In this document: one piece after another, positions 1 to 10,301 of the stretch | Layout: every line of letters starts with the position of its first letter | Numbering within the stretch: position 1 is the first letter of the stretch | IMG/VR virus record: IMGVR_UViG_2531839668_000006 | From: a virus | Lineage: Duplodnaviria > Heunggongvirae > Uroviricota > Caudoviricetes | Length of the DNA stretch: 10,301 nucleotides | Strand: one strand, 5' to 3' | Notes under the pieces: generated by a model | Told to the model about the DNA's origin: nothing | Databases searched by the model: none | The model's input: the letters and a program-made list of their open reading frames with translations, nothing else | Made by a program: the position numbers and the translations under genes

Positions 1-213
1 TTTTTTTTTACCAGAAAGTATACTCTCTGCATACTCTGGCTTAATCGATAATAAAACTTTCATCAACACCTCCCTGTAAGACAATCTGCTTAAATGCTGA
101 ATCAGTTAGTGGTAAAAAACCCCAATAATCACTATTGGTATAACCTGTAATATTCATGATTTCATCACGAATAACTCTTTTTTCCAAAGGGAAATTATAA
201 GTAAACCGTATAA

Positions 214-621
214 TTATCGGATAATTTTTTTCATATATAGAAGCTGTAACTCATCTTCATCAAAAACGCTATAAGGTTCACAGTAATTCTTAAATTCCTC
301 ATAAGTTAAGAAATCGTGAATATCTTTAATTTCCTGAACCACACACACTGAAGTTGCAACAGATCTAAACCGAGCTGGACCTTGTCCATCTGAAGTACGA
401 TAAATAAGCAAATTATCTCCAGGCTTTAGGCTGGCTACCCCATGCATTTTTGTTAAGTATACTTTTTCAATACTGTTGGTATGTGATATATCAGCGATGA
501 TACCAGCACTCTCATTGTGGAGTTTTGACTCAGGGAAAAGACGTGTATGCCATGCAGGATAAATACTTAATAGATAATTTCTCCCCTGCAATTTGACTAA
601 GGGATAATTAGCATAGCTCAT
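214..621 (-). CDS. Hypothetical protein (135 aa), second gene of AT-rich cargo cassette; fold unassigned, weak PUA-like/ASCH-like beta-barrel impression
   Basis: ATG at 621..619 preceded by AAGGAG with about 7 nt spacing (reverse complement of 628..633). Visibly AT-rich compared with the phage core. Fold suggestion rests only on loose motifs (LQGR near N-terminus, LKPGDNLL loop). Confidence 0.5.
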   Translation of the reverse strand: MSYANYPLVKLQGRNYLLSIYPAWHTRLFPESKLHNESAGIIADISHTNSIEKVYLTKMHGVASLKPGDNLLIYRTSDGQGPARFRSVATSVCVVQEIKDIHDFLTYEEFKNYCEPYSVFDEDELQLLYMKKIIR

Positions 622-624
622 TTT

Positions 625-1095
625 TTACTCCTTCCATACCAAGTTTTTAAAGTATACACCTTCTTGCCCATTAATCGTAGAAAGATTTTTCCTCGCCTTT
701 AAAACAAAACCATATTTAGTTAATAAGCGAATTAATCCTGAATGCTTATCAAATATAGTAACATATACTTCTTTTAGTTTGTTTCTCATAGCAAATTGAA
801 ACATAATTCTAATAAAACGCTCTCCAAGTTTGGTTCCATGAGCATCGATTTTAAATGTGCCAAGCTTTACTCGCTTCATCTTTGGAAACGTTGGAGTCAT
901 ATCACTCAACTCTTCATCTTCTATTTTCAAATAGAGAAAACCATCGATTTCACCTAATTCATTACGTGATACAAACGCCTTATTTTTACCTTTTGAGAGA
1001 AACCAAACATCAAATCCTTCATAATCAGCTCTTAGGCTGTTAAAAAACGGATCTTTTAAATCGATATCACTAAAAAATTTTTCCTCGATAGACAT
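625..1095 (-). CDS. GNAT-fold (acetyltransferase-like) protein, 156 aa, first gene of AT-rich cargo cassette
   Basis: ATG at 1095..1093 with an upstream AGAGGAA Shine-Dalgarno-like sequence. C-terminal half has GNAT-like topology: VKLGTFKID, an HGTKLGER loop, then EVYVTIFDKHSGLIRLLTKYGF resembling GNAT motif B. Called from motif memory only. Confidence 0.5.
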   Translation of the reverse strand: MSIEEKFFSDIDLKDPFFNSLRADYEGFDVWFLSKGKNKAFVSRNELGEIDGFLYLKIEDEELSDMTPTFPKMKRVKLGTFKIDAHGTKLGERFIRIMFQFAMRNKLKEVYVTIFDKHSGLIRLLTKYGFVLKARKNLSTINGQEGVYFKNLVWKE

Positions 1096-1143
1096 CCAGT
1101 TCCTCTTCTAATGGCAGCGAGCAAGTGACCTTATCCTTACATG

Positions 1144-1170
1144 TTAATAGATAACCACAGCTGTAGGCAA
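1144..1170 (-). promoter_or_regulatory. Candidate sigma70 promoter for the cargo cassette (-35 TTGCCT, -10 TATTAA on - strand) with an 8-bp palindrome ACAGCTGT in the spacer
   Basis: Reverse complement of 1165..1170 is TTGCCT and of 1144..1149 is TATTAA, 15 bp apart, about 45 nt upstream of the ATG at 1095. Palindrome ACAGCTGT lies at 1157..1164. Confidence 0.25.
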
Positions 1171-1271
1171 TTACATACATTAAGCTCTATCAAACAACGA
1201 GCAAACTTAAGCACCGCTACAACTCAACCTAGCTGATGCCTGTTTTGACGATTACCCTATCAGCGCGCGCT

Positions 1272-1333: not shown

Positions 1334-1357
1334 AAAAGCCCGCCAGAACTGGCGGGC
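1334..1357 (-). terminator. Rho-independent terminator on the - strand, downstream of the lipoprotein gene
   Basis: GC-rich inverted repeat GCCCGCCAG (1338..1346) / CTGGCGGGC (1349..1357); the - strand transcript then reads UUUU (plus-strand AAAA at 1334..1337). Confidence 0.5.
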
Positions 1358-1461
1358 CTTAACACAAAAGATCCTCAAACGATCATGCGATCTCATGCAG
1401 CATAGACATGCGCGTTTATGCAGAATGTGCAAAATCGTAACATACTCAGCAAGCGTGAAAC

Positions 1462-2139
1462 CTAGAACGTGACAGCCTTGTCAAAGCCAGAAATAATTGT
1501 ATAAGAAATAGACGAGTTATCAGCCTTGTTCACTTTGAACTTGGCACCTTTGTAAGCGATAACGTCACTTCCCTTAGAATCTACAGAAAAATCTGTTGTA
1601 AATGCTGCACGAGCCATATCGTTTGCAAATTCACGATAGGTGAACTTCATTACACCGCCTGCATTTCCATTGTATTCGATAGTCTTAACCAATGAGTTAC
1701 TAACTCGACACAGCCCATCAGGAACACGTTTGATAGAAATTTCTGATGCAGTATAAGAAGTACCATTTGGCGGTGATATCTCATTTTTTGCAGCATCGTA
1801 ACTAACATAATCAACATAGTTACCGATTTGCCCATAGAGATTTTTTAACGCAACAGCTTGAGGGTTATGATAATTGCGGTAAATTCCATTCCCCTCACTG
1901 CAATATGTACCAGCAGCGATAGAAGACAATGCACCATTAGCCGCACCAAGTTCTAGTACGTCCGTTTTAAATCCAGTAGCAGATGTGATAATGGGATCGC
2001 CCATGTAGGCGGTAGCACTTTGCCCAATAGCAGGCTTCACCACTTCAATAGCAGTGATATTTCGGTTAGAAGCATGTGGCACGCAACCAGTTAGGATTAC
2101 AGCAAGAGATATTGGTAACGCTACATTATTAATTTTCAT
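1462..2139 (-). CDS. Predicted lipoprotein, 225 aa, unknown function (cargo between SOS operon and cos-like site)
   Basis: Internal ATG at 2139..2137 gives MKINNVALPISLAVILTGC, a typical lipoprotein signal peptide with lipobox LTGC. Mature part is Ser/Thr/Asn/Gly-rich. The longer ORF from 2193 would bury the signal peptide. Confidence 0.7.
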   Translation of the reverse strand: MKINNVALPISLAVILTGCVPHASNRNITAIEVVKPAIGQSATAYMGDPIITSATGFKTDVLELGAANGALSSIAAGTYCSEGNGIYRNYHNPQAVALKNLYGQIGNYVDYVSYDAAKNEISPPNGTSYTASEISIKRVPDGLCRVSNSLVKTIEYNGNAGGVMKFTYREFANDMARAAFTTDFSVDSKGSDVIAYKGAKFKVNKADNSSISYTIISGFDKAVTF

Positions 2140-2162
2140 TTTTAGCCTATTATTCTTTTCTT

Positions 2163-2197
2163 GACAAAAAACAAGGCGATATCTGATTGACATCGCC
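2163..2197 (-). terminator. Candidate Rho-independent terminator of the SOS operon (- strand)
   Basis: Stem GGCGAT (2175..2180) / ATCGCC (2192..2197), extendable by a wobble pair; the - strand RNA continues UUGUUUUUUGU (plus-strand A-run 2165..2173). Stem is short, loop about 11 nt. Confidence 0.4.
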
Positions 2198-2838: not shown

Positions 2839-5253
2839 TTAATACAGGTTCCGCCACTTATCATCTTCCTGCAAACGCTGGTTCCGATAGAAGATACGCA
2901 GGCCTGCTCCTGACGGAATACTGCCGCCGCGAAGGAGTAAATCGACCTCTTTCTCGCTGCCATCAAATCCTCTGGATTTCAGTTCATAGACGAGCTGCTG
3001 TCGTTGATGGTCTGTAATTCGCTGTTTGTAGTCTCTACGCCGTTTCGGTTTCACCAGACGTAACCTTGCAGCCAATTCCCGGCGCTCCTTTTTGTTCATA
3101 CTGTGCAGGTAATCGTGCAACACCTTGTCATCCATGCGGGTAATGTCCGTTCTGGGGTCCCCATCAGCTGATTTATCTTTCTCCTGTTGGTTCAAATTTT
3201 CAGCAAGGGGACAGTTATTGCCACGAGTCCAAGGGGCGCAAGCGCCCTGGTCGGCTGCCGCCTCCTGAACGTCAACGGCCTTACGAACCATTTTCCACTT
3301 CACGGCATGAGTGCAGATCTTGCCCTCTGCAATAGGTGACCAGATGCCATAAATACGAATGCCGTGATCGCCATAGGCGGTCGGCTCTTCGTTGATTTCA
3401 TAAGCAGTTCTGATGAGGTGATATTTGCGGGGAACCAGTACGCCACCCTGCTTCATGATGTAGGTGGCAAAACAACCAGCATCAGCAGCAGCCAGAATGG
3501 CATCAAGGCGCGGGTTATCCAGTACCGGCGCACCTGCTTTTTTGTCCCCCTGTTGCCTTGCCGCCTGACCAGCCAGCAATCGCAGTTCACGGTAAGCCTG
3601 ACGCCCCGGAATGCCAAAGAAGCGGAATTGCTGAACACGATGCAGAGACGCCCAGGCATTAACGTATTCAGCATTATCACGCAGGGATTTCCCCGTTTCC
3701 TTGCTGATCTCGCCAGCCAGACCACGCCCGTCAATGTTCTTACTGATGTATTTCGCGATGTAGCTTGTTGGCGTACCTTTGCGCGGGTTAATCAACTCAG
3801 ACTTAAAGCGCGGCCCAGTGTTATTGCCCAGCTCCTCGCGGTCTTCACGGATGGCAAACTTACGCAGTAATGCAGTGATGGTGCGGCGGTCTTTTTTGCG
3901 CATAAAACACAACAGGTGCCAGTGAACTGTACCGTCATGATGCGGCTCAGCCACCCGCACGCCATACCACCGCAATCCGGCTTTGTGCATCGCCTTACGA
4001 AATGCAGCAAACATGCCGACCAGATAATCACTGCTTTGTCTTACCGTCGCATTTGTCCAGGTTGGGTTGGGCCTGCCGTTATTTAGCGTGGAATGGAAAC
4101 GTGACGGACAGGTGATGGTGTAGAAAACGGCGCAGTCACCGCGCATTTCCGCGATAAGCTCCAGACCTTTAACACAGGCCATCATCTCATTGCGGCGATG
4201 CGCTGGGTTGCTGCTGCTGGCGTTTACCACATCCTCCATGTCCAGCGTGTCGCCGTCTTCGTTCACCAGTTCATGAGAACGGAAAAACTCCAGCGACTTA
4301 CGGCGCTGCTCACGTTTATGCATCACGGCTTCATAGCTGACATAAGGAGATGCTTTTTTGCTGACAAGGCAGACTGCACGCAACTGCTCTTCCCGCCATT
4401 CGCAACGCATCTTCCATAATTTCCGATACCACCAGTCGGCGCACAACATACGCGCCAGCGAACCCGGAATGAGTTCATAGGGCACGGGTTTACGGCGGTT
4501 TCTTTTCCGACGGAGTTGCTCAAACGCAGGCGGGATGACATCCAGACGCAGGGTTTCCGCTGCCACCCTTTCCCATGTATTGCGGATTTCTTCTGGCTTA
4601 ACGTCATCGGTGGCATACAAATCGCCACAAGCGGCATCAAGGCACATACTCATATGCGCAGCTACCAGGGTGGACAGGCGTTTCACCTGATCCTGACTCA
4701 TTTCAGGCAGGATCAGCAGGCCGTCCAGCCCTTCATGGCTTGCCATAAAGCGAAAAGATGCAGATAGCTGACTGTCGCGTACATGCTCCAGTCGTTCCAG
4801 ACATGGCTTAATCGTCTCACGTAAATAGCGGGAATAAGCCTTTGGCCTGCCCAGGCTGCTGAAGTATTCAATACGTTGCATCAGCGGCTTGCTGATATGG
4901 GAAGGCTGGGCGTTGACGTCCGCCAGAATGACCATATCCGGATTAAAACGCTGCTGCTCATGCGCCAGCTTTGCCCGACTAATGAGCTTATCCTGTTCCA
5001 TTTCGCGCTGGACAGGATCACGGGATTCATTAAAGAAATAACGCTCCCAGACCTGATCACTCAGCGCCTCACGGCGCAGCTGTTCCTGCTCGTTATCGGC
5101 AGCGTACAGAGTGATCAGGTTTGAAAGCGTAGAAACCGGCGCAACTTCCACCGGGTCCAGATAAGGGTTAATGGCCTTTTTCGGGCTGTTCCATGAGAAC
5201 GATGCGGCAGCTTCGTTAAAGCCGCAGCAGTTGTTCATATCGGCATGACTCAT
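2839..5253 (-). CDS. A: P2 gpA-type rolling-circle replication initiator (804 aa)
   Basis: Contains an HUH-type motif VHWHLL (codons at about 3916..3924) and paired active-site tyrosines SYIAKYISK (Tyr codons 3762..3760 and 3750..3748), as in phiX174/P2 gpA. Start ATG at 5253..5251 overlaps the Dam stop codon (ATGA). Confidence 0.9.
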
Positions 5254-9060: not shown

Positions 9061-9195
9061 CTTTTGCTTTTATATCTGCGTCTAAAATAAAAATGAGCCG
9101 CAGGTTAACCGCAAAAGTTACATGCTCACATAGCAAAAAGAATAGCCAACTTCATTATGGCTTCAGTGAGATGTATGGTCGTAGGATTTCATACA

Positions 9196-9224
9196 TTGAC
9201 ACTGGTTATACATACAGTAAAAAT
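9196..9224 (+). promoter_or_regulatory. Candidate int-proximal sigma70 promoter (-35 TTGACA, -10 TAAAAA)
   Basis: Perfect TTGACA at 9196..9201, 16-17 bp spacer, then TAAAAA/AAAAAT at 9218..9224, about 25 nt upstream of the int ATG and its GGAGGG at 9235..9240. Confidence 0.3.
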
Positions 9225-9248
9225 GCTCTCTACTGGAGGGCATTTTTT

Positions 9249-10301
9249 ATGGCAGTACGAAAACTCACCACAGGGAAATGGCTTTGCGAATGTTACCCCG
9301 CCGGACGAAGTGGGCGTCGTGTGCGTAAACAATTCGCCACCAAAGGCGAAGCTCTGGCTTTTGAGCGTCACACTATGGAAGAAACCGAATCAAAGCCATG
9401 GCTGGGCGAATCAGTGGATCGTCGAACCCTGAAAGACGTGGTTGAGCTATGGTTCAAACTACATGGTAAATCTCTGACTGCTGGGCAGCATGTCTATGAC
9501 AAATTGCTGCTGATGGTTGACGCTCTGGGCAATCCTCTTGCAACCGATCTCACCTCTAAAATGTTTGCCCACTATCGAGATAAACGCCTGACAGGCGAGA
9601 TCTACTTCAGCGAGAAATGGAAGAAAGGAGCAAGCCCGGTCACCATTAACCTGGAGCAAAGCTATCTAAGTAGTGTTTTTAGCGAACTATCCCGTCTGGG
9701 CGAATGGTCGTATCCGAACCCACTGGAGAACATGCGAAAATTCACCATCGCAGAAAAAGAGATGGCATGGCTTACCCATGAGCAGATTGTTGAATTACTG
9801 GCTGATTGCAAACGTCAGGACCCAATTCTAGCACTGGTAGTTAAGATATGCTTAAGCACAGGCGCACGCTGGCGAGAAGCCGTAAATCTTACTCGTTCAC
9901 AGGTGACCAAATACCGAATTACCTTTGTAAGAACGAAGGGGAAGAAAAACAGAAGTATCCCTATCAGTAAAGAGCTTTACGAAGAGATCATGGCGCTTGA
10001 TGGGTTCAATTTCTTCACAGACTGCTATTTTCAATTTTTATCCGTGATGGAAAAAACGTCTATCGTGCTCCCTCGCGGTCAACTCACACACGTTCTGCGC
10101 CATACGTTTGCGGCGCACTTCATGATGTCGGGTGGAAACATTCTGGCCTTACAAAAAATTCTCGGACACCACGATATAAAAATGACTATGCGTTACGCAC
10201 ATCTGGCACCGGATCATCTGGAAACGGCGCTCCGTTTCAATCCTCTGGCAACGCTGCCAAGTGGCGACAAAGTGGCGGCAGCGGTTGGCATTACCCCGTA
10301 A
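9249..10301 (+). CDS. int: P2-family tyrosine integrase (350 aa from internal start)
   Basis: C-terminal catalytic region (CLSTGARWREA, RITFVRTKGKKNRSIPIS, HVLRHTFAAHFMMSGGNILALQKILGHHDIKMTMRYAHLAP) closely resembles P2 Int as recalled. The ATG at 9249 has GGAGGG 8 nt upstream and begins MAVRKLTTGKW, like P2 Int MAIKKLDDGRY. The ORF from 9093 is a probable over-extension. The TAA stop is the last codon of the window. Confidence 0.9.
   Translation: MAVRKLTTGKWLCECYPAGRSGRRVRKQFATKGEALAFERHTMEETESKPWLGESVDRRTLKDVVELWFKLHGKSLTAGQHVYDKLLLMVDALGNPLATDLTSKMFAHYRDKRLTGEIYFSEKWKKGASPVTINLEQSYLSSVFSELSRLGEWSYPNPLENMRKFTIAEKEMAWLTHEQIVELLADCKRQDPILALVVKICLSTGARWREAVNLTRSQVTKYRITFVRTKGKKNRSIPISKELYEEIMALDGFNFFTDCYFQFLSVMEKTSIVLPRGQLTHVLRHTFAAHFMMSGGNILALQKILGHHDIKMTMRYAHLAPDHLETALRFNPLATLPSGDKVAAAVGITP

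What the first reader, a model, noticed from the sequence alone, without database searches (positions are those of the whole stretch)
619..630. The two cargo ORFs share a reading frame and are separated by a single TAA plus one codon
On the - strand the junction reads ...WKE-TAA-AAA-ATG(SYANYP...), and 1095 minus 621 is a multiple of 3. Either these are two coupled genes whose AAGGAG ribosome-binding site overlaps the end of the first, or one ancestral GNAT fusion protein of about 290 aa was split by a nonsense mutation or is subject to stop-codon readthrough.
Basis: seen in the sequence. Interest (0 to 1): 0.5.

Follow-up and report, generated by a model that had tools for sequence, protein, structure and literature searches.

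The report
Conserved split of a defence-candidate gene
The two in-frame ORFs are the acetyltransferase half and the modified-base-reader half of a prophage-borne candidate anti-phage protein that is usually one ~350-residue chain, and in enterobacteria it has long been kept as two tightly coupled genes, not as a broken gene or a read-through.

Summary
The junction is exactly as described: on the minus strand, ...TGG AAG GAG TAA AAA ATG..., in frame.

Both ORFs hit one PADLOC profile, PDC-M11A (357 positions). ORF1 covers positions 11-160 and ORF2 covers 166-357. Most relatives are single proteins of 347-365 aa, so an ancestral fusion is real.

The split is old and maintained:
- 18 lineages (Enterobacterales, Aeromonas) at 57-99% identity keep a 154-156 aa ORF1 and a 192-194 aa ORF2.
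- dN/dS is 0.02-0.10 in both halves, with near-saturated synonymous sites.
- All three stop codons occur. Spacers are 0, 2, 3, 10 or 15 nt, and six lineages are out of frame.
- A GGAG/AGGA Shine-Dalgarno sequence always lies 6-12 nt before the ORF2 start.

The shared frame is therefore incidental and read-through is not needed. The best reading is two translationally coupled genes.

Structure models place the stop in the coil between a GNAT domain and a PUA-like (ASCH/EVE-type) domain. An ASCH gene (PDC-M11B) follows.

Separately, ORF2 in this window is frameshifted. An A8 run is A7 here, giving 135 aa instead of 193.

This is an ordinary gene fission of modest interest.

The parts
625..1095 (-). 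ORF1, 156 aa. This is the GNAT-fold N-terminal half of PDC-M11A. Its stop codon TAA is at 625-627.
628..633 (-). Shine-Dalgarno sequence AAGGAG for ORF2. It is formed by the last two sense codons of ORF1 (Lys-Glu) and lies 6 nt upstream of the ATG.
   Evidence: A core of at least 4 nt (GGAG, AGGA, AGGAG or GGAGG) lies 6-12 nt upstream of the ORF2 start in all 18 split lineages.
619..627 (-). The junction itself: stop TAA (625-627), one-codon spacer AAA (622-624), start ATG (619-621).
   Evidence: In relatives the spacer is 0, 2, 3, 10 or 15 nt and the stop is TAA, TGA or TAG.
214..621 (-). ORF2 as it reads in this window, 135 aa. This is the PUA-like (ASCH/EVE-type) C-terminal half of PDC-M11A, cut short by a frameshift.
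225..231 (-). A7 homopolymer. It is A8 in 7 of 8 related complete E. coli genomes. The missing base shifts ORF2 out of frame.
   Evidence: Alignment of the window with L001 and L002. Codon view. E. coli LD91-1 also has A7.
41..224 (-). Out-of-frame remnant of the ORF2 3' part. It encodes ...NYPIIIRFTYNFPLEKRV...GGVDESFIID, with stop TAA at 41-43.
   Evidence: The translation of the intact relative L001:4778-5359 is identical apart from the one-base difference.
1..63 (-). First 21 codons of the ASCH-domain gene (PDC-M11B), which runs off the window edge. Its ATG (61-63) lies inside the intact ORF2 reading frame, preceded by GGAGG at 69-73.
   Evidence: The RefSeq annotation of L001 gives WP_001555843.1 as ASCH, overlapping ORF2 by 23 nt. 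Pfam ASCH E 5e-9 and PADLOC PDC-M11B E 2e-49.
1096..1250 (-). Cargo-specific upstream region of the cassette, presumably holding its promoter. The widely conserved P2-type flank begins at about 1245-1250.
   Evidence: In the megablast search only query bases 1 to about 150 (window about 1250-1400) match in 1282 records, while the cassette matches in 8. No consensus minus-strand promoter was detected. GC is 34% in the cassette against 51% in gpA/Dam.

Best explanation
The pair is a conserved gene fission, not a broken gene. In most bacteria one protein of about 350 aa (PADLOC candidate PDC-M11A) carries an N-terminal GNAT acetyltransferase domain and a C-terminal PUA-like (ASCH/EVE-type) domain. 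In a clade carried by mobile elements of Enterobacterales and Aeromonas, that gene has been cut in the variable interdomain linker into two genes. ORF1 ends at a genuine stop codon. ORF2 is translated separately from its own start, 0-15 nt downstream, using a Shine-Dalgarno sequence built from the last codons of ORF1 (Trp-Lys/Arg-Glu/Asp = TGG-AAG/AGA-GAx). Ribosomes finishing ORF1 therefore most likely hand over to ORF2 by translational coupling (inferred). ORF2 in turn carries the Shine-Dalgarno sequence and start of the next gene, ASCH (PDC-M11B). The two polypeptides presumably reassemble non-covalently into the same two-domain unit (inferred). The shared reading frame in this window is a by-product of a 3-nt spacer. 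What is shown: both halves match one PDC-M11A profile and align end to end with the fused proteins; the split is conserved; both halves are under selection; stop, spacer and frame vary; the split lies at the domain boundary. What is inferred: the coupling, the heterodimer and any biochemical role. The cassette lies in the P2 gpA-portal defence hotspot. It is plausibly an acetyl-mark writer (GNAT), reader (PUA-like) and eraser (ASCH) module acting on nucleic acid in phage defence, but it is untested. In this particular window a one-base contraction (A8 to A7) truncates ORF2, so the local copy is probably impaired.
Against: No experiment shows that ORF2 is translated, that coupling occurs or that the halves associate. 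All of the closest relatives (78-100% identity) are in frame with a 3-nt spacer, so a minor read-through product in this sub-lineage cannot be excluded. Fused proteins nest inside the split clade (split-only monophyly 0 of 100 bootstraps). The history therefore involves at least two fission or fusion events and is not resolved by a neighbour-joining tree. Pfam finds no GNAT or ASCH domain in either half. A profile-profile comparison of the C half with ASCH_B is not significant. Domain identities therefore rest on predicted structures. PDC-M11 itself is an untested candidate.
Confidence: 0.85

Rival explanations
1. A recent nonsense mutation split a fused GNAT gene. ORF2 is then an untranslated, decaying remnant, that is, a pseudogene.
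For: Fused relatives are the norm. The stop is in frame with a 1-codon spacer in this lineage. In this window ORF2 also carries a frameshift. Sporadic, irregular disruptions do occur elsewhere in the family: L033, L035, L043 and L060.
Against: The split has the same gene lengths (154-156 and 192-194 aa) in 18 lineages down to 57% identity. ORF2 has dN/dS 0.02-0.10 with near-saturated synonymous change. It keeps all family-invariant residues. The ORF2 start codon and Shine-Dalgarno sequence are present in every lineage.
Confidence: 0.03
2. Programmed stop-codon read-through makes a fused protein of about 350 aa from the in-frame pair, alongside or instead of the two separate proteins.
For: The arrangement is in frame in the window and in 12 of 18 lineages, including all relatives at 78% identity or more. 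Some of these use TGA, the leakiest stop.
Against: Six lineages are out of frame, with spacers of 2 or 10 nt, and still keep both genes under selection. The stop identity and the following base are not conserved. The window uses TAA, the tightest stop in E. coli (established knowledge). No significant RNA structure surrounds the junction (z = 0.17). A strong Shine-Dalgarno sequence and an ATG are always present, which read-through would not require.
Confidence: 0.05
3. ORF1 and ORF2 are two unrelated neighbouring cargo genes, and both the shared frame and the apparent fusion are coincidental.
For: Pfam finds nothing in either ORF. RefSeq annotates both simply as hypothetical proteins.
Against: Both hit consecutive parts of the same PADLOC profiles, with E values of 1e-58 and 6e-69. 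Together they align end to end with hundreds of single proteins.
Confidence: 0.01

Closest known systems
PDC-M11 (PADLOC phage defence candidate, genes A and B; the PDC set is described in Payne et al., bioRxiv 10.1101/2024.01.29.577857)
   Same: ORF1 and ORF2 match the PDC-M11A profiles, and the following ASCH gene matches PDC-M11B. The A-then-B gene order, with overlapping ends, is the same. The location is a defence hotspot.
   Different: Here gene A is two genes instead of one. The enterobacterial cassette also carries an AAA_17 kinase-like gene, a second ASCH-like gene and a putAbiC gene. The PDC systems were released as untested candidates.
Fused GNAT-PUA-like proteins annotated 'GNAT family N-acetyltransferase' (for example E. 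coli P0004, Cedecea lapagei P0006, Burkholderia P0019 and P0045)
   Same: They are 49-65% identical over the full length of ORF1 plus ORF2, with the same invariant residues and the same downstream ASCH partner.
   Different: They are single polypeptides of 347-365 aa with a variable 6-14 residue linker where the window has stop, spacer and start.
Translationally coupled gene pairs and gene fission-fusion ('Rosetta stone') pairs in bacterial operons. One example is PARIS AriA/AriB, which also exists as a single-gene fusion (PMC9122126).
   Same: The stop and start lie within a few nucleotides. The Shine-Dalgarno sequence sits inside the upstream ORF. The same two domains are found fused in other genomes.
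   Different: Coupling here is inferred from sequence only. Fused forms nest within the split clade, so the direction of change is not settled.
ASCH, EVE and YTH PUA-like domains: YqfB N4-acetylcytidine amidohydrolase (PMC6972931), ASCH tRNA ac4C erasers (bioRxiv 10.64898/2026.02.27.708502) and EVE-HNH enzymes such as VcaM4I (PDB 6yex)
   Different: There is no sequence-level match to Pfam ASCH and none to the neighbouring ASCH_B. ORF2 has about 50 extra C-terminal residues. No activity is known.

Membership tests
PDC-M11 (PADLOC candidate system) | A protein matching the PDC-M11A profile | tested here: met
   ORF1 E 1e-58 (profile positions 11-160 of 357). Intact ORF2 E 6e-69 (positions 166-357).
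PDC-M11 (PADLOC candidate system) | An adjacent PDC-M11B (ASCH) gene | tested here: met
   The window holds only its first 21 codons (1-63, minus strand). In L001 the full gene hits PDC-M11B at E 2e-49 and Pfam ASCH at E 5e-9.
PDC-M11 (PADLOC candidate system) | Gene A is a single polypeptide of about 350-500 aa, as in the profiles | tested here: not met
   A stop codon sits between the halves in the window and in 18 lineages. This is a split variant.
PDC-M11 (PADLOC candidate system) | Anti-phage activity | not testable with these tools
   The PDC systems were released as untested candidates. No paper in the library characterises PDC-M11.
GNAT acetyltransferase superfamily (ORF1) | GNAT fold | tested here: met
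GNAT acetyltransferase superfamily (ORF1) | Sequence match to the Pfam Acetyltransf_1 model or the canonical Q/R-x-x-G-x-G/A acetyl-CoA loop | tested here: inconclusive
   There is no Pfam hit at E<=1. An invariant HGTKLGERF segment sits at the strand-helix junction where the loop is expected, but it deviates from the canonical motif. PF00583 is recorded for only a few distant relatives.
PUA-like superfamily (ASCH/EVE) (ORF2) | PUA-like beta-barrel fold | tested here: met
PUA-like superfamily (ASCH/EVE) (ORF2) | Sequence-level membership of Pfam ASCH | tested here: not met
   There is no Pfam ASCH hit. hhalign against ASCH_B gives probability 3%. The PDB sequence search found nothing.
Translationally coupled gene pair | Stop and start within a few nucleotides, with a Shine-Dalgarno sequence inside the upstream ORF, conserved in relatives | tested here: met
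   The spacer is 0-3 nt in 16 of 18 lineages. A Shine-Dalgarno core lies 6-12 nt upstream in all 18.
Translationally coupled gene pair | Downstream translation depends on upstream translation | not testable with these tools
   This needs reporter or ribosome-profiling experiments. The predicted pairing that would sequester the Shine-Dalgarno sequence is not significant.
Programmed stop-codon read-through | In-frame downstream ORF, with a conserved leaky stop context or stimulatory structure | tested here: not met
   The frame is not conserved (6 of 18 lineages out of frame). All three stops and variable contexts occur. There is no significant structure.

The most novel reading that the evidence does not exclude
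The cassette is a nucleic-acid acetylation conflict system made of a GNAT writer, a PUA-like reader and an ASCH eraser.
Probability: 0.12. Interest if true: 0.6.

Novelty: new variant of a known kind. Interest (0 to 1): 0.3.

Why it matters
For annotation, the two 'hypothetical' or 'GNAT' genes should be treated as one functional unit, a split PDC-M11A, and not flagged as a pseudogene or a read-through candidate. For mechanism, nature has shown that the GNAT module and the PUA-like module of this untested defence candidate tolerate separation at the linker. That gives a ready-made way to express, purify and mutate the two halves separately. It also points to a writer/reader/eraser logic with the adjacent ASCH gene. 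For this window specifically, the A7 frameshift means the local copy may be inactive or only leaky, which matters if the strain is used to test the system.

Tried and rejected
- Pfam scans of both ORFs gave no GNAT or ASCH hit, only a sub-threshold Swi3 match.
- A profile-profile comparison of the C half with the neighbouring ASCH_B was not significant. Only the LLSI-P motif aligned, at probability 3%.
- A profile search of PDB sequences with the C half found nothing meaningful.
- Folding the RNA around the junction gave z = 0.17. The Shine-Dalgarno sequence is paired in the minimum-energy fold, but no better than in shuffled sequences.
- The promoter scan found no minus-strand consensus promoter upstream of ORF1.
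- I suspected that the several 135-aa ORF2 clusters (P0252, P0255, P0310, P0313, P0315) were the same frameshift recurring. They are 5'-shortened gene calls or contig-edge fragments instead.
- I tried to map the stop to a single point mutation relative to the closest fused relatives (P0001, P0002, L010). The linker is too diverged in length and sequence, at 6-14 residues.
- Arg after the conserved Trp is always AGA or AGG, which creates GGAG. However, AGR makes up 56% of Arg codons in these AT-rich genes, so codon choice alone is weak evidence.
- Literature searches found no characterisation of PDC-M11 or of a GNAT-ASCH defence system.

Full report
**Observation**

On the minus strand the window reads ...GTA TGG AAG GAG TAA AAA ATG AGC TAT GCT AAT TAT CCC.
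- ORF1 is 625-1095(-), 156 aa.
- ORF2 is 214-621(-), 135 aa.
- The two are in frame and separated by TAA plus one codon.
- AAGGAG ends 6 nt before the ATG.

The same junction occurs in eight complete E. coli genomes at 98.6-99.5% identity. The exact ORF1 protein is on at least 1000 contigs. The sequence is therefore real. A shared frame alone is a one-in-three event.

**Setting**

The window is a P2-like prophage. It carries the gpA replication endonuclease at 2839-5253(-), Dam, a DinI-like gene and an integrase at 9093-10301.

In relatives the AT-rich cassette (34% GC against 51% in gpA/Dam) lies between gpA and the portal gene. That is the P2 defence hotspot described in PMC9122126.

The full cassette, in order:
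- ORF1
- ORF2
- an ASCH gene
- an AAA_17 kinase-like gene on the opposite strand
- a second ASCH-like gene
- putAbiC

The window ends 21 codons into the first ASCH gene.

**Is there an ancestral fusion? Yes.**
- PADLOC profile PDC-M11A (PDLC04419, 357 positions) is matched by ORF1 at positions 11-160 (E 1e-58) and by the intact ORF2 at positions 166-357 (E 6e-69). The ASCH gene matches PDC-M11B.
- A query joining the two halves finds 1953 relatives. Nearly all of the best 120 are single proteins of 347-365 aa that cover 100% of the query at 49-65% identity.
- In alignment A1 the stop falls in a variable linker between two conserved blocks. The window proteins keep all 80 invariant columns.
- Among 80 loci from species-representative genomes, 65 encode one fused ORF, 7 are cleanly split, 4 are irregularly disrupted and 4 are incomplete. 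All 7 cleanly split loci are in Enterobacterales.

**Is it a fresh nonsense mutation? No.**

ORF1 alone retrieves about 50 clusters of stand-alone proteins of 153-157 aa, nearly all exactly 156 aa, at 57-99% identity. They come from Salmonella, Yersinia, Serratia, Providencia, Morganella, Enterobacter, Erwinia, Dickeya, Rahnella, Klebsiella, Kosakonia and Aeromonas. ORF2 retrieves about 45 clusters of 193-aa proteins.

I fetched DNA for 18 distinct split lineages and tabulated the junctions:

| Feature | Values seen |
|---|---|
| Stop codon | TAA in 6 lineages, TGA in 10-11, TAG in 1-2 |
| Spacer 0 nt | Providencia, Morganella, Erwinia |
| Spacer 2 nt | Serratia silvae, Citrobacter, Dickeya, an ICE-borne copy, Klebsiella oxytoca |
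| Spacer 3 nt | E. coli, Salmonella, Yersinia, Serratia plymuthica, Kosakonia, Pantoea, strain LSJC7, metagenomic L089 |
| Spacer 10 nt | Aeromonas |
| Spacer 15 nt | Providencia stuartii (21 nt in the L095 copy read) |
| Frame | 12 lineages in frame, 6 out of frame |

Pairwise Nei-Gojobori estimates give dN/dS of 0.02-0.10 for both ORF1 and ORF2. Synonymous differences are 0.35-0.93 per site, many of them saturated. ORF2 has therefore been translated and selected for a long time since the split.

**Is read-through needed? No.**

The frame, the stop codon and its context are not conserved. What is conserved is a Shine-Dalgarno core (GGAG, AGGA, AGGAG or GGAGG) 6-12 nt upstream of the ORF2 start in all 18 lineages. 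It usually comes from the terminal Trp-Arg/Lys-Glu/Asp codons (TGG AGA GAx or TGG AAG GAG). In Aeromonas and Providencia stuartii it comes from the spacer itself. The RNA around the junction shows no significant structure (z = 0.17).

Two translationally coupled genes is the best reading. A minor read-through product in the in-frame sub-lineage cannot be excluded computationally.

**Where the cut lies**

An AlphaFold2 model of the closest fused relative, P0001 (65% identical), has pLDDT 90.3 and pTM 0.87. The split maps to the coil at residues 152-164, between the last strand of the N domain (143-151) and the first strand of the C domain (165-167).

ORF2 therefore has the PUA-like fold of modified-base readers. 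Sequence methods do not see this: Pfam is negative, hhalign against ASCH_B gives probability 3%, and the PDB sequence search is negative.

**History**

I built a neighbour-joining tree with 100 bootstraps.
- All split sequences plus six fused ones (P0001, P0002, P0003, P0004, P0006, L010) form one clade in 100 of 100 replicates.
- Split-only monophyly is never recovered (0 of 100).
- The fused E. coli/Cedecea group is sister to the split LSJC7 sequence in 100 of 100 replicates.

At least two fission or fusion events are therefore needed. Because all split ORF1s end at the same Trp-Arg/Lys-Glu/Asp position, one fission followed by re-fusions is plausible, but this is not established. The linkers of fused relatives differ in length (6-14 residues) and in sequence, so no single causal mutation can be named.

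**Function (inferred)**

An ASCH_B gene overlaps the 3' end of gene A in about 85 of 95 loci, whether A is fused or split. An AAA_17 kinase-like gene is often present.

ASCH proteins include YqfB, an N4-acetylcytidine amidohydrolase (PMC6972931), and proposed tRNA ac4C erasers (bioRxiv 10.64898/2026.02.27.708502). A GNAT writer, a PUA-like reader and an ASCH eraser acting on nucleic acid is therefore an attractive hypothesis.

The PDC systems in PADLOC were released as untested candidates found by 'guilt by embedding' (bioRxiv 10.1101/2024.01.29.577857). I found no characterisation of PDC-M11.

**A second lesion in this window**

The run of A at 225-231 is A7 here and in E. coli LD91-1. It is A8 in seven other complete genomes.
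- A7 truncates ORF2 at 135 aa (WP_248698633.1, on 10 contigs).
- The truncation removes 58 residues that include invariant positions.
- It ends translation about 150 nt before the ASCH_B start, which normally lies inside ORF2 behind a GGAGG.

The real total is about 350 aa. A -1 slip on A AAA AAA would restore exactly the wild-type ...MKKNYP... sequence, and a Logan-assembly variant (P0234) has A6 at this run. Whether this is decay, a sequencing artefact or slippage-based switching is open.

**Verdict**

The pair is a conserved two-gene, translationally coupled version of a normally fused GNAT-PUA-like protein of the defence candidate PDC-M11. It is not a fresh nonsense mutation or a read-through site. 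It is a new variant of a known, though uncharacterised, kind and of modest interest.

Noticed in passing
window 225-231 (minus strand A-run), affecting ORF2 214-621 and its remnant 41-224: The window has A7, as does E. coli LD91-1, where seven other complete E. coli genomes have A8. This truncates the PUA-like ORF2 to 135 aa (WP_248698633.1, on 10 contigs). A -1 slip on the run would restore the exact wild-type sequence. A Logan variant (P0234) has A6 here and A5 at the junction. Most other lineages encode the same Lys-Lys-Asn with AAG AAA AAT, which has no long run.
   Followed up: partly
window 1-73 (minus strand); L001:5337-5708: The ASCH gene (PDC-M11B) starts 23 nt inside the intact ORF2 and is preceded by GGAGG, which is made of the conserved Gly-Gly codons of ORF2. 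ORF1, ORF2 and ASCH therefore form a chain of overlapping or abutting, probably coupled, genes. The window frameshift breaks this chain.
   Followed up: partly
L001:4304-7494; L083, L084, L085, L089, L090, L091, L092, L094, L087: A larger cassette travels as a unit: split A, ASCH_B, an AAA_17 kinase-like gene on the opposite strand, a second ASCH-like gene, and often putAbiC. It is found in P2-like prophages, in a lambdoid prophage of Yersinia (after NinG and antiterminator Q), in an ICE (next to TraG and DtrJ) and in Aeromonas. The kinase-like gene also accompanies many fused loci in Firmicutes, where it lies upstream on the same strand.
   Followed up: partly
protein clusters of ORF1 and ORF2: Many NCBI members of both clusters are 'partial' proteins that end inside these genes at contig edges, in Salmonella, E. 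coli and Klebsiella. This suggests the cassette is repeated or otherwise breaks short-read assemblies.
   Followed up: no
window 1462-2193 (minus strand): A 243-aa ORF with a lipoprotein-like N-terminus and no Pfam hit lies between the DinI-like gene and the cassette. It is absent from L001, and L002 has a different 204-aa ORF at that position. The hotspot therefore holds a second variable slot.
   Followed up: no
L033, L035, L043, L060 (distant family members): These are irregular disruptions of otherwise fused genes: frameshifts, stops inside conserved domains, or halves separated by kilobases. They look like true pseudogenes and contrast with the regular enterobacterial split.
   Followed up: no
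window 1335-1362 (minus strand): A GC-rich inverted repeat, GGCCCGCCAGTTCTGGCGGGCTTTTGCG, follows the upstream genes and looks like an intrinsic terminator. Its loop differs between the window (TTC) and L001 (AAC). The simple scan did not report it.
   Followed up: no
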